Both the position numbers and the translations under genes were made by a program. A stretch of 64,000 nucleotides of DNA from positions 672,001 to 736,000 of the forward strand of contig OZ243961.1 of NCBI GenBank assembly GCA_965214605.1, in the 5' to 3' direction. Shown here in pieces: positions 38,301 through 40,331 of the stretch (position 1 is its first letter; every line of letters starts with the position of its first letter). This stretch comes from an uncultured Candidatus Binatia bacterium. Lineage in GTDB: Bacteria; Desulfobacterota; Binatia; Bin18. The notes beneath the pieces were generated by a model that made no database searches, was not told the origin of the DNA, and saw only the letters and a program-made list of their open reading frames with translations.

Positions 38301-39035
38301 CTAAAGGGATACTCTCCGCAGAGCTCGGGGGAATCCGTTTGCTTCTCCGTCCAGCGTACCGACCTCATTCACTCCGGCGGTATTGCTCTTCAAAATTCCC
38401 AAAGCCAACGTTTGTAGCATCTCGAGGTAATCCTCAACTTTGGCAAAACGCTTCAAGGCCCAATGACGCACCGCCCACGACTGAGCCAGAACGAGCAAAC
38501 AGTGCGCCTTAAGATCAATGTCGCCAGCCGGAAAAGCCTTTTTCTCCACTCCATAAGCAATAATTTCCTCAAGCAGACTCTGAATACGCTCTTCTCCCTC
38601 TAGCAGGCGTCTGCGTTCGGCACTGGTCAGAGACTTCATCTCTTGGTAGCCCAAGACCACATCGCGCCGCAGCTCATCGATGAGACGCACATAGCGTTCG
38701 TAGGCGAGCAGGAATAACTGCTTGGGAGCAACCCCTTTCTCTTTGAGCCGTTCATATTCTGCTCGCTGCTCACGCAGCATGACCTCAGTCCGTTCTTGAT
38801 TGTGGGAGAACAGGAAAAACAGAATCTCTTCTTTGCTGGTGAAGTAGTTAAAAACGGAGCCAACGCTCAGGTCCGCCTTCTTGGCAATCTCTCGGACGCT
38901 GGTATTGTGGTACCCGTTACTTAAAAAGAGAGCTGCCGCCCCAGAGGCAATCCGCTCTTTGCCTTCGAGCAGGCGTTTCTCGTCTGTAACCTGGGAGGTT
39001 TGTCTTCGCTTTTTGCGTAGAACTTGACCTTTCAC
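38301..39035 (-). CDS. TetR/AcrR family transcriptional regulator
   Basis: LFLSNGYHNTSVREIAKKADLSVGSVFNYFTSKEEIL HTH; QSWAVRHW C-domain. Confidence 0.92.
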   Translation of the reverse strand: MKGQVLRKKRRQTSQVTDEKRLLEGKERIASGAAALFLSNGYHNTSVREIAKKADLSVGSVFNYFTSKEEILFFLFSHNQERTEVMLREQRAEYERLKEKGVAPKQLFLLAYERYVRLIDELRRDVVLGYQEMKSLTSAERRRLLEGEERIQSLLEEIIAYGVEKKAFPAGDIDLKAHCLLVLAQSWAVRHWALKRFAKVEDYLEMLQTLALGILKSNTAGVNEVGTLDGEANGFPRALRRVSL

Positions 39036-39070
39036 CCGCGCGTTCCTTTCCGGCTGAACTAGGCATGTGC

Positions 39071-39123
39071 TGAGTGAGTGTTCATTTCAAAATTTCATAC
39101 GTCAGGCAAGCGTCTTTTGTCAA
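39071..39123 (-). promoter_or_regulatory. Putative tetR promoter (TTGACA-18-TATGAA) and downstream imperfect palindrome TGAACACTCACTCA (candidate TetR operator)
   Basis: TTGACA at 39118-39123 (minus), TATGAA at 39094-39099, TGA..TCA box at 39071-39084. Confidence 0.5.
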
Positions 39124-39164
39124 GAAGACATTGAGAGGGCAAGCGCCCCTCAGCTTATTGTTTA

Positions 39165-39378
39165 GCTGCCCCCCCCCTGCACGTAGCGCGCACGCGGCGG
39201 CGGACAGCGCCGCGGCGGGCTGCCAGGCTGCCCCCCCCCTGCACGTAGCGCGCACTGGAGGTTCAATCTATTTGAAAAGAAATTCCAGCTGCCCCCCCCT
39301 GCACGTAGCGCGCACTCTGTTCAAGGGGCTTCTTCAGCAGCGGCTGAGAGAAGTGTCTGCCCTTGCACGTAGCGCGCA
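39165..39378. CRISPR. CRISPR-like mini-array: 3 repeats GCTG(C8-9)TGCACGTAGCGCGCAC plus 1 degenerate copy; no cas genes in window
   Basis: Repeats at 39165-39193, 39227-39255, 39288-39315; unique spacers of 33 and 32 nt; fourth core TGCACGTAGCGCGCA at 39364-39378. Confidence 0.6.
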
Positions 39379-40331
39379 ATCTGTTCGTGGGTGGCAAACC
39401 AGACGCCCGGCTTGTTCTTCATGTACACGATCAGTTGCTCCAGCATCTGCATCCGAGAACGATGGCCAATGACCTGGGGATGGGTGACCAGCATATACAA
39501 CGTACCCTCTTCATACGCGCCGTCAAACTCGGCGGTCCAGATCGAATACACTTCGTCTGTGGTGCGTAAGCCCACATGCTGACTGGTCCAACTGAGCTGA
39601 AAATATGGCCAGTCATCCAGAATCCACTCAACCGGTAACTCGACCAACCCTGACTCTTGTCCGTCAGACATGAGGCTGTACGGACGATCATCCGCCATCA
39701 TACTGCTGTCGTACAAAAAGCCCATTTCTTTGACGATCTTGATCGTTGCCGGGGTCAGGTCCCAGGCCGCGGACCGAAAGCCAACCGGCCTCTTCCCCAC
39801 CGTTTGAATAAAAATATCCATTGCCTTTGCATACACCTCACGCTCTTGGTCTTCGGTCAGGCTCAGCGGGCTCTCATGGATATAGGAGTGAAAGCCAATC
39901 TCGTGCTGGGGGCGATCAATGATGGTCTGCACCGCCTCAGGGTGGAGTATCATAGACGCCGCGGGGATGAAGAACGTGGCTGGAATGGCGTGCTTGTCGA
40001 GCAGTTTCATGATACGCGGCAGCCCGGCCCGTGCCCCATACTCGCCACGCGACATATACGATGGACTGTGGTTGCCCTGAAAGCCGAGCCACACCGGCTC
40101 AGTGTCAAAGTCAAACGAGAGACTAACCGCCACTTTTGCGCCCCCAGGCCATTGTTTGGGAGTCAGGTCCTTGCCACTGCGGACGGTCCTCACATGGGCT
40201 TTCATCTCTTCAGGCGTCCACTGCCAGATCGGCTTGTCCTGCCCGGCCCTGAGGGCAGAGGCCGAACAGATAACACAGCTCACCAGTACACAAACGGTCT
40301 TTATCGTGTTCGGCCACAGGTTCGGCATCAC
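39321..40331 (-). CDS. Exported polysaccharide deacetylase (NodB/PgdA/PuuE-like)
   Basis: Signal peptide, SFDFD, HEIGFHSYIHE, YDSSMM, THPQVIG, VWFATHEQIARYV. Confidence 0.9.
   Translation of the reverse strand: MMPNLWPNTIKTVCVLVSCVICSASALRAGQDKPIWQWTPEEMKAHVRTVRSGKDLTPKQWPGGAKVAVSLSFDFDTEPVWLGFQGNHSPSYMSRGEYGARAGLPRIMKLLDKHAIPATFFIPAASMILHPEAVQTIIDRPQHEIGFHSYIHESPLSLTEDQEREVYAKAMDIFIQTVGKRPVGFRSAAWDLTPATIKIVKEMGFLYDSSMMADDRPYSLMSDGQESGLVELPVEWILDDWPYFQLSWTSQHVGLRTTDEVYSIWTAEFDGAYEEGTLYMLVTHPQVIGHRSRMQMLEQLIVYMKNKPGVWFATHEQIARYVQGQTLLSAAAEEAP

What the first reader, a model, noticed from the sequence alone, without database searches (positions are those of the whole stretch)
39165..39378. Cas-less CRISPR-like mini-array whose last repeat is the coding 3' end of a gene
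Seen: three near-identical repeats GCTG(C9,C9,C8)TGCACGTAGCGCGCAC (29, 29, 28 nt). Two unrelated spacers of 33 nt (GC-rich) and 32 nt (AT-rich) separate them. A fourth core, TGCACGTAGCGCGCA, follows at the same 60-64 nt period but lies inside the polysaccharide deacetylase CDS, where it encodes part of the C-terminal VWFAT..IARYVQG motif. On the minus (transcribed) strand the repeat starts with GTG and folds as TGCGCG-CTA-CGTGCA. No cas gene is in the window. Known: a 29-nt repeat with 32-33-nt spacers is the geometry of type I-E arrays, and Cas1-Cas2 can seed arrays at repeat-like off-target sites. Inference, three options: an array nucleated de novo on a gene end and transcribed by read-through; an atypical regulatory or guide mini-array; or stacked att-site scars from repeated integration at this gene end.
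Basis: partly seen in the sequence, partly recalled or inferred. Interest (0 to 1): 0.85.

Follow-up and report, generated by a model that had tools for sequence, protein, structure and literature searches.

The report
Stray CRISPR array on gene end
A small CRISPR-like array has grown out of the last bases of an ordinary enzyme gene, most likely because the cell's own spacer-inserting enzymes mis-fired there, and the same genome carries many similar scars.

Summary
Four copies of a 15-nt core (three full 28-29-nt repeats) sit at window 39165-39379 with unrelated 33- and 32-nt spacers. The core occurs nowhere else in the 4.37-Mb genome.

Same-genus orthologous loci lack the array. They align up to the in-gene copy A and resume right after copy D, so the native gene end was the seed repeat. 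The last nine codons and the stop now lie in the oldest spacer, S1.

"Cas-less" holds only for the window. The genome (Candidatus Binatia relatives) has a complete type I-E system whose 97-repeat array is 28 nt + 33 nt.

A genome-wide scan found seven solo insertions with about that geometry. Five of the seven inserts are copies of other chromosomal sites. Two of six loci checked have empty sites in relatives. At one of them another species carries a different 33-nt insert.

A contig from a roughly 95%-identical strain lacks exactly two repeat-spacer units.

Best reading: a natural neo-CRISPR made by off-target Cas1-Cas2 integration, probably I-E (confidence 0.78). This is a known kind (Nivala 2018), but an unusually rich natural case. 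Function as guides is untested and looks unlikely.

The parts
39165..39193 (+). Repeat copy D (29 nt, C9). It adjoins the native downstream flank of the gene and is inferred to be the leader-proximal, newest copy.
   Evidence: The downstream flank is about 76% identical to the G007 orthologue tail.
39194..39226 (+). Spacer S3 (33 nt, GC-rich).
   Evidence: No match in the own genome, only chance-level matches in phages and plasmids, and no exact 25-mer in viral contigs.
39227..39255 (+). Repeat copy C (29 nt, C9), identical to copy D.
39256..39287 (+). Spacer S2 (32 nt, AT-rich).
   Evidence: No self match. No exact 25-mer in viral contigs. One 21-mer hit in metagenome contigs whose flanks do not extend the match.
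39288..39315 (+). Repeat copy B (28 nt, C8). The run length is C8 or C9 in different contigs of run X7.
   Evidence: extra C after 39291 at depth 27 against 46. Copy B matches the I-E repeat at 13 of 28 positions.
39316..39351 (+). Oldest spacer S1 (36 nt). On the minus strand it encodes the last 9 residues (LSAAAEEAP) and the stop codon of the deacetylase.
   Evidence: S1 is also present in the X8 strain contigs.
39352..39379 (+). Copy A, the native proto-repeat inside the CDS (21 of 28 identical to copy B). It encodes the end of ...IARYVQGQTL.
   Evidence: Orthologues carry the same core in their coding sequence.
39321..40328 (-). Polysaccharide deacetylase gene, whose 3' end seeded the array.
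   Evidence: Pfam PF01522, E 1.8e-14. Orthologues at 80-87% identity in 5 of 7 same-genus genomes.
39120..39164 (+). Native downstream flank, holding a terminator-like hairpin at 39132-39152. It is the inferred leader side of the mini-array in the + orientation.
   Evidence: Polarity is inferred from the X8 strain and from the orientation of the best match to the I-E repeat.
38301..39035 (-). TetR-family regulator gene. It is the downstream neighbour and the synteny is conserved in the genus.
   Evidence: Pfam PF00440. Conserved promoter region.

Best explanation
The mini-array is a natural 'neo-CRISPR'. The cell's own spacer integrase (Cas1-Cas2) inserted spacers off-target into the last ~28 nt of the deacetylase gene. 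For the two youngest units the integrase is most likely that of the resident type I-E system. Each insertion duplicated the 28-nt target and put about 33 nt of unrelated DNA between the copies, giving gene-A-S1-B-S2-C-S3-D-native flank. Copy A is the native gene end. After the first insertion the reading frame ran into S1, which now supplies the last nine codons and the stop. The non-coding copy acquired a C8-9 run on the + strand, which makes it look more like the I-E repeat. It was then hit twice more at the end facing the old downstream flank (S2, then S3). Shown: the insertion relative to orthologues, the geometry, the resident I-E system, parallel solo events with traceable inserts and empty sites, and strain variation by two units. 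Inferred: which integrase acted, the polarity, and that the array is a by-product rather than a working guide array.
For: (1) Orthologous loci in G007, G003, G005 and G004 align up to copy A, skip 187 nt, and resume just after copy D. Deacetylase-TetR synteny is kept. (2) A complete I-E operon (Cas3, Cse1, Cse2, Cas7, Cas5, Cas6e, Cas1e, Cas2e) sits beside a 97-repeat array with a 28-nt repeat. Its period is 61 in 94 of 96 intervals and 60 in one. The mini-array units are 29+33 and 29+32, or 28+33 if the C-run is C8. The other arrays are 36+30 and 37+34-52. (3) The genome scan gave 58 clean pairs of direct repeats with an unrelated middle, 37 of them at periods 55-90. All 21 outside that range are tandem coding repeats, low-complexity sequence or one unit of another repeat type. 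Seven solo events have I-E geometry: C1:91695, 500128, 1399850, 4089123, 125263, 3921609 and 2692053. (4) Five of those seven inserts are 32-33-nt copies of other chromosomal sites, one of them from the I-E leader. Only 2 of 96 canonical I-E spacers have such matches. (5) Empty sites: G006 and G007 have one copy of the 28-nt target and no insert at the 4089123 site. At the 2692053 site G006 is empty, while G007 carries a different 33-nt insert with its own duplication. G007 has a Cas1e; G006 has none above the cut-off. (6) The I-E-geometry targets and copy B match the I-E repeat at 12-17 of 28 positions. The background is 8.5 +/- 2.05. Copy B scores 13, P about 0.03. (7) A 143-nt contig from run X8 (7 differing letters) joins 39163 to 39287. 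It skips 123 nt, which equals D+S3+C+S2, and keeps B, S1 and A. (8) A second stacked case exists: a HicA-like gene is split by two spacer+repeat units, and intact 87-aa homologues exist in relatives.
Against: The oldest unit does not fit I-E: S1 is 36 nt, giving a period of 64. The first 7 nt of S1 (TCTGTTC) equal the gene flank next to copy A, which a clean 28-nt duplication does not predict. Copies A and B differ at 7 of 28 positions, which is a lot for copies that were once identical. The native proto-repeat matches the I-E repeat only at background level (9 of 28, counted by hand). S2 is 32 nt, a length seen in only 1 of 96 canonical units. None of S1-S3 has a traceable protospacer, unlike 5 of 7 solo events. 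The X8 variant is one short contig at depth 3.6, and it could equally be a deletion between repeats. Homopolymer lengths (C8 or C9) are uncertain. Empty sites were sought for six events; four gave no orthologous DNA across the site.
Confidence: 0.78

Rival explanations
1. Same mechanism, different integrase. All three units, or at least S1, were inserted by another resident Cas1-Cas2 rather than the I-E one. Candidates are the module behind the 26-30-nt duplication / 35-39-nt insert class, or the type II module.
For: The S1 unit (28+36, period 64) resembles the class seen at C1:912965 (27+37), C1:782974 (26+39) and the HicA locus (30+35 and 30+39). Copy B begins GCTGC, as does the type II repeat. 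The genome has at least five cas1 loci or fragments.
Against: Inserts of 33 and 32 nt lie outside the spacer ranges of the 37-nt arrays (34-52) and the type II array (mostly 30). Duplications of 28-29 nt match only the I-E repeat length.
Confidence: 0.1
2. A working mini-CRISPR or regulatory array. The units are transcribed and processed, and used as guides or as a regulatory 3' UTR element of the deacetylase/TetR locus.
For: The array lies between the deacetylase stop codon and a terminator-like hairpin, so it is probably within that mRNA's 3' UTR. None of its three spacers is self-derived, unlike 5 of 7 solo off-target inserts. That pattern would fit selection against self-targeting.
Against: The repeat has no stable hairpin. 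It matches the I-E repeat at only 13 of 28 positions and lacks the Cas6e stem that the canonical repeat forms. There is no Rfam match and no adjacent cas genes. It was not found in the five close same-genus orthologous loci examined.
Confidence: 0.06
3. Stacked att-site scars. Integrative elements repeatedly targeted the gene's 3' end, each bringing a replacement end, and were later deleted to short remnants.
For: The repeat is gene-end derived and the copies are direct, as with attL/attR duplications.
Against: None of the 15 tyrosine-integrase hits in the genome lies in the window. The remnants would have to be trimmed to 32-36 nt each time. The spacers share no ends. The same geometry occurs at seven solo sites whose inserts are copies of chromosomal DNA.
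Confidence: 0.03
4. Slippage or tandem duplication of the gene end followed by divergence, or an assembly artefact around the homopolymer.
For: The A-B pair shares about 41 nt at 76% identity, including 7 nt beyond the repeat, and could have begun as a microhomology-mediated duplication. The C-run length varies between contigs.
Against: Copies B, C and D are identical apart from the C-run length, while the spacers are wholly unrelated (GC-rich against AT-rich). Contigs from three studies reproduce the arrangement.
Confidence: 0.03

Closest known systems
Neo-CRISPR loci from non-canonical (off-target) spacer integration (Nivala, Shipman & Church 2018, Nat Microbiol 3:310)
   Same: A resident Cas1-Cas2 inserts spacer-sized DNA outside the array. 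The insertion duplicates a repeat-length target that resembles the repeat, and repeated hits can start a new array. The paper itself was not held. I saw only passages citing it. 10.1101/148544 says off-target integration can spawn novel arrays in E. coli and gives 'circumstantial evidence' in two other species. PMC7054753 says off-target events were detected by shotgun sequencing. The species names I recall, Yersinia pestis and Sulfolobus islandicus, come from memory and not from any call.
   Different: This is a natural genome, not an over-expression system. The seed repeat is the coding 3' end of a gene, and a spacer now encodes the protein's tail. Dozens of events carry the geometries of at least three CRISPR types in one genome. 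Most solo inserts are self-derived. One site is hit independently in two species.
Canonical type I-E CRISPR array (as in E. coli and in this genome at C1:2301764-2307667)
   Same: Repeat of 28-29 nt, spacers of 32-33 nt, unique spacers, and strain-to-strain difference in unit number.
   Different: The repeat sequence is unrelated apart from a C-run. It has no Cas6e-type hairpin, no conserved leader and no adjacent cas genes. One unit has a 36-nt spacer.
In vitro off-target integration by Cas1-Cas2 (P. furiosus, PMC6698737; S. thermophilus type II-A, PMC6895254; passages read)
   Same: Off-target sites are paired cuts one repeat-length apart, and they share bases with the repeat or the leader-repeat junction.
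   Different: Those are plasmid assays. Here the products are fixed in chromosomes and can be compared with empty orthologous sites.
Orphan CRISPR arrays
   Same: An array that is distant from any cas operon.
   Different: Orphan arrays normally carry a recognisable repeat family and arise by loss or transfer of cas genes. This repeat is derived in situ from a host gene.

Membership tests
Neo-CRISPR / off-target Cas1-Cas2 integration product | A resident adaptation module whose repeat and spacer lengths equal the duplication and insert lengths | tested here: met
   The I-E operon is complete and its array is 28+33. Units 2 and 3 are 28-29 + 32-33. Unit 1 (28+36) does not fit.
Neo-CRISPR / off-target Cas1-Cas2 integration product | Insertion relative to an empty orthologous site, with the target sequence duplicated | tested here: met
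   Four same-genus orthologous loci lack 187 nt between copy A and the flank of copy D. The X8 contig lacks exactly two units.
Neo-CRISPR / off-target Cas1-Cas2 integration product | Target resembles the canonical repeat or the leader-repeat junction | tested here: inconclusive
   Copy B matches the I-E repeat at 13 of 28 positions, against a background of 8.5 +/- 2.05 (P about 0.03). The native proto-repeat scores only 9 of 28 (hand count).
Neo-CRISPR / off-target Cas1-Cas2 integration product | Inserted DNA traceable to a protospacer | tested here: not met
   S1-S3 have no convincing source. The feature is met for 5 of 7 parallel solo events elsewhere in the genome.
Neo-CRISPR / off-target Cas1-Cas2 integration product | Integration catalysed by the named Cas1-Cas2 | not testable with these tools
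   This needs a biochemical or in vivo assay.
Canonical type I-E CRISPR array | Repeat of the I-E family with the Cas6e hairpin | tested here: not met
   The fold is no better than shuffles, there is no Rfam hit, and identity to the resident repeat is 13 of 28.
Canonical type I-E CRISPR array | Adjacent leader and cas operon | tested here: not met
   No cas1, cas2 or cas9 hit lies in C1:672001-736000. The I-E operon lies about 1.6 Mb away.
Canonical type I-E CRISPR array | Processed crRNAs | not tested
   No RNA run was examined.
att duplications of integrative elements | Site-specific recombinase nearby, with element ends between the repeat copies | tested here: not met
   0 of 15 PF00589 hits lie in the window. 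The spacers are unrelated to one another.
Dispersed repeat (REP/MITE) | Many copies across the genome | tested here: not met
   The exact core occurs only at this locus. The 22-mer has 0 hits in genome contigs and in metagenome contigs.

The most novel reading that the evidence does not exclude
This Binatia lineage's adaptation modules are habitually promiscuous and act as an endogenous insertion generator. They write 30-41-nt pieces of the cell's own and foreign DNA into repeat-like chromosomal sites. They hit some sites repeatedly and in more than one species. In doing so they remodel genes: a deacetylase tail now encoded by a spacer, and a HicA-like toxin gene knocked out. The multi-spacer sites would be genuine births of new CRISPR loci with host-gene-derived repeats, and some of these may become expressed and selected.
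Probability: 0.25. Interest if true: 0.85.

Novelty: new member of a known kind. Interest (0 to 1): 0.68.

Why it matters
According to the passage I read, natural evidence that Cas1-Cas2 integrates outside arrays, and that arrays can be born this way, is thin. This genome offers a fixed natural record of such events. It includes targets with empty orthologous sites and inserts with known sources. It includes a hot spot hit independently in two species and two stacked mini-arrays. That record allows the in vivo target rules of several integrases to be read from sequence. It shows a fitness-relevant cost of adaptation modules, in the form of gene disruption and changed protein ends. It also warns that 'orphan arrays' found by array finders may be mis-integration products.

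Tried and rejected
- Protospacer searches for S1-S3. The own genome gave only 12-18-nt chance hits. Phage and plasmid collections gave chance-level hits; the best was 27 of 29 to an Enterococcus phage portal gene, E 0.01, and its flanks do not match. Exact or IUPAC sub-patterns gave 0 hits in viral contigs. One 21-mer hit in a metagenome contig has flanks matching only 5 of 11, which is chance level.
- The repeat 22-mer in public genomes and metagenomes gave 0 and 0.
- The 1-mismatch core at C1:538929 lies inside an aminopeptidase gene and is a coincidence.
- Empty-site searches for events 500128, 3921609, 4250365 and 1399850 found no orthologous DNA across the site.
- ORF-spanning analysis of 'restored' sites was uninformative in this GC-rich genome.
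- No consistent PAM could be read from five self protospacers.
- Similarity of the 37-nt-class and HicA-class targets to their candidate repeats was mostly at background. Only 2 of 11 exceeded the 99th percentile.

Full report
**Observation**

- Copies D (39165-39193) and C (39227-39255) are identical 29-mers: GCTG, nine C, then TGCACGTAGCGCGCAC.
- Copy B (39288-39315) is the same with eight C.
- A fourth, degenerate copy A (39352-39379) carries the exact 15-nt core.
- Copy A lies inside the 3' end of a minus-strand ORF (39321-40328). That ORF is a polysaccharide deacetylase (PF01522), and the core encodes ARYVQ.
- The spacers are 33 nt (GC-rich) and 32 nt (AT-rich).
- The core has four matches in the window against 0.12 expected by shuffling.
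- In the 4.37-Mb genome the exact core occurs only here. The one 1-mismatch hit sits inside an aminopeptidase gene.
- Neither strand of the repeat folds better than shuffled sequence (z 0.18 and -0.20).
- Rfam finds nothing between 38000 and 40500.

**Not an artefact, and variable between strains**

All evidence here comes from assembled contigs of public runs, not raw reads.
- A contig from run X4 spans 38700-39900 with no difference. X4 may be the source sample.
- A 136-nt contig from X7 covers D-S3-C-S2 and the start of B exactly.
- Contigs from X1, a separate study from 2019, match both flanks exactly and break at the repeats.
- X7 also holds a contig with one extra C in copy B (depth 27 against 46). 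The C8/C9 difference is therefore unstable or uncertain.
- In X8, a third study, one 143-nt contig at depth 3.6 differs at 7 letters. It joins 39163 to 39287 and skips 123 nt, which is exactly D+S3+C+S2. It keeps B, S1 and A.
- That strain either never gained, or has lost, precisely two repeat-spacer units.

**What the array was built on**

Relatives' records are labelled Candidatus Binatia MAGs. Orthologues of the deacetylase are found at 80-87% identity in 5 of 7 same-genus genomes. TetR is the conserved downstream neighbour where I read the downstream sequence (G007, G003, G005, G004; not G002).

In G003, G004 and G005 the gene ends ...ARYVQEQAAEQ*, and the TetR promoter follows within about 20 nt. 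None of the five orthologous loci examined has the repeats.

In the alignment with G007, G003, G005 and G004, the orthologues follow G000 up to copy A. They then skip 187 nt and resume immediately after copy D. The G000 flank there is about 76% identical to the G007 tail and promoter region.

So the native gene end was the seed repeat:
- Copy A keeps the native upstream flank.
- Copy D keeps the native downstream flank.
- Three (spacer + repeat) units lie between them.
- A consequence is that the last nine codons (LSAAAEEAP) and the stop codon of the present protein lie in S1.

**The genome is not Cas-less**

cas1 and cas2 hits occur at several loci, none in the window.
- A complete type I-E operon (Cas3, Cse1, Cse2, Cas7, Cas5, Cas6e, Cas1e, Cas2e) adjoins a 97-repeat array.
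- That array's repeat is 28 nt. Its period is 61 in 94 of 96 intervals, 60 in one and 84 in one.
- A type II locus with Cas9 has a 36+30 array. Two further arrays have 37-nt repeats with spacers of 34-41 and 39-52 nt.
- Only the I-E geometry fits units 2 and 3 of the mini-array (29+33 and 29+32, or 28+33 if the run is C8).

**The decisive context: the same kind of scar elsewhere in the genome**

I scanned the genome for exact direct repeats of 20 nt or more, at a period of 30-300, with an unrelated middle, outside the known arrays. The scan gave 81 pairs, 58 after removing tandem-duplication-like ones.
- 37 of the 58 have periods of 55-90.
- The other 21 are tandem coding repeats, low-complexity sequence, or one unit of another short-repeat type.
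- Seven solo events have I-E geometry. C1:91695, 500128, 1399850 and 4089123 are exactly 28+33.
- C1:125263 is 28+33 with one mismatch in the duplication. C1:3921609 is 27+34 and C1:2692053 is 27+33.
- One event is 36+30, the type II geometry. About a dozen have 35-42-nt duplications with 31-41-nt inserts, the 37-nt-array geometry.
- A few are 26-30 + 35-39.

Five of the seven I-E-type inserts are copies (32-33 of 33 nt) of other places in the same chromosome. One is a piece of the I-E leader itself. The type II-type insert and several others also have self sources. By contrast, only 2 of 96 canonical I-E spacers match the chromosome outside arrays.

The 28-nt targets of these events match the I-E repeat at 12-17 of 28 positions. 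The background is 8.5 +/- 2.05 for random genomic 28-mers in their better orientation. Copy B scores 13, P about 0.03.

**Empty sites**

I looked for orthologous empty sites for six events.
- For 4089123, G006 and G007 have one copy of the target and no insert.
- For 2692053, G006 has the empty site. By match coordinates G005, G001, G003 and G004 do too.
- At that same site G007 carries its own duplication with a different 33-nt insert.
- G007 has a Cas1e above the family cut-off. G006 has none.
- For 500128, 3921609, 4250365 and 1399850, no orthologous DNA crossed the site.

**A second stacked case**

A HicA-like toxin gene is split by two units (L036:1697-1862). The duplication is 30 nt and the inserts are 35 and 39 nt. 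It sits upstream of a HicB-like antitoxin gene.

Intact 87-aa homologues in G016 and G009 align across the break. The duplicated segment encodes FEERIRGSH in both halves. Those homologues score 24-26 bits against Pfam HicA_toxin, just under its cut-off of 27.

**Mechanism proposed**

Cas1-Cas2 made staggered cuts one repeat-length apart at a repeat-like site, ligated a prespacer, and gap repair duplicated the target.
- The first hit, in the gene end, gave A-S1-R.
- The non-coding copy then gained the C-run. That raised its likeness to the I-E repeat from 9 of 28 (my hand count for the orthologue-like sequence) to 13 of 28.
- It was hit twice more.
- The strain with S1 only fits polarised addition at the low-coordinate end, with the oldest spacer shared. 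That is also the orientation in which copy B best matches the I-E repeat.

I regard the array as a by-product. It has no Cas6e-type hairpin and no leader or cas neighbours. Expression was not tested.

**What does not fit**

- S1 is 36 nt, not 33. It contains two triplet doublets (GCTGCT and GAAGAA), so a later 3-nt slip is possible but unproven.
- The first 7 nt of S1 repeat the gene flank beside copy A.
- Copies A and B differ at 7 of 28 positions.
- The first event may therefore have had another origin: another integrase, or a microhomology duplication.
- None of S1-S3 has a traceable source.
- The X8 evidence is a single low-depth contig, and a deletion between repeats would look the same.

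**Comparison with what is known**

Off-target integration that can seed 'neo-CRISPR' arrays was reported by Nivala, Shipman and Church (2018).
- I could not open that paper. I rely on citing passages and on recall for its natural examples.
- In vitro work shows that off-target sites resemble repeats or leader-repeat junctions (passages of PMC6698737 and PMC6895254).
- My literature searches listed no paper describing a natural genome with many such events, a gene-end seed repeat, or a spacer-encoded protein tail. The library lacks most subscription journals, and supplements were closed, so this is not proof of absence.

**Verdict**

The finding is real and explained. It is a new and unusually informative member of a known kind.

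Noticed in passing
L036:1697-1862 (G000:C1:1706198-1706361): A HicA-like toxin gene is split by two stacked spacer+repeat units (30-nt duplication, 35- and 39-nt inserts), upstream of a HicB-like antitoxin gene. Intact 87-aa homologues exist in G016 and G009.
   Followed up: yes
G000:C1 at 91695, 125263, 500128, 1399850, 2692053, 3921609, 4089123 (loci L127-L133): Seven solo insertions with type I-E geometry (27-28-nt duplication plus a 33-34-nt insert). Five inserts are copies of other chromosomal sites, one of them from the I-E leader.
   Followed up: partly
L151:1775-1960 (G007) against L131:710-890 (G000): The same orthologous site carries a different 33-nt insert, with its own target duplication, in two species. 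It is empty in G006. This looks like a recurrent off-target hot spot.
   Followed up: partly
G000:C1 at 4250365 (L134), and at 2103855, 3068860, 2197075, 3676203, 916264, 1880827; also C6:7607: Solo insertions with the geometries of the type II array (36+30) and of the 37-nt-repeat arrays (35-42 + 31-41). Several inserts have self sources.
   Followed up: partly
L004 (G000:C1:610552-614205), array at C1:612874-613539; solo unit at C1:176444: An odd array beside a Cas1-like ORF: 22-25-nt repeats, ~19-22-nt spacers (period 43-44), with the same spacer repeated many times. One two-repeat unit of the same type lies elsewhere in the genome.
   Followed up: no
G000:C1:3218149-3218181 and 3170433-3170465; also C1:51258-51299 and 337619-337648: Two of 96 canonical I-E spacers and two of 24 spacers of one 37-nt-repeat array have perfect or near-perfect matches elsewhere in the chromosome. 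These are self-targeting spacers or prophage targets.
   Followed up: no
window 39195-39231 and 39313-39346: Runs X4 and X7 (and X1 for the first range) hold other contigs that resemble S3 (37 nt, 5 mismatches; a 7.9-kb contig) and S1 (34 nt, 4 mismatches; an 856-nt contig at depth 175). They may be relatives of the protospacers.
   Followed up: no
window 39288-39299: The homopolymer in copy B is C8 in one X7 contig (depth 46) and C9 in another (depth 27). The run is unstable or error-prone.
   Followed up: partly
G000:C1:909800-917000: A cluster holding a degenerate integrase hit with internal stops (909838-910329), a cas2-like hit (913288-913461), two duplication-plus-insert events (912965 and 916264), and the source of the insert found at 4089123 (915880-915912).
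   Followed up: no
L119 (G000:C1:2534760-2535020): A second small I-E array of four repeats. Its upstream flank repeats the sequence found at the distal end of the large I-E array.
   Followed up: no
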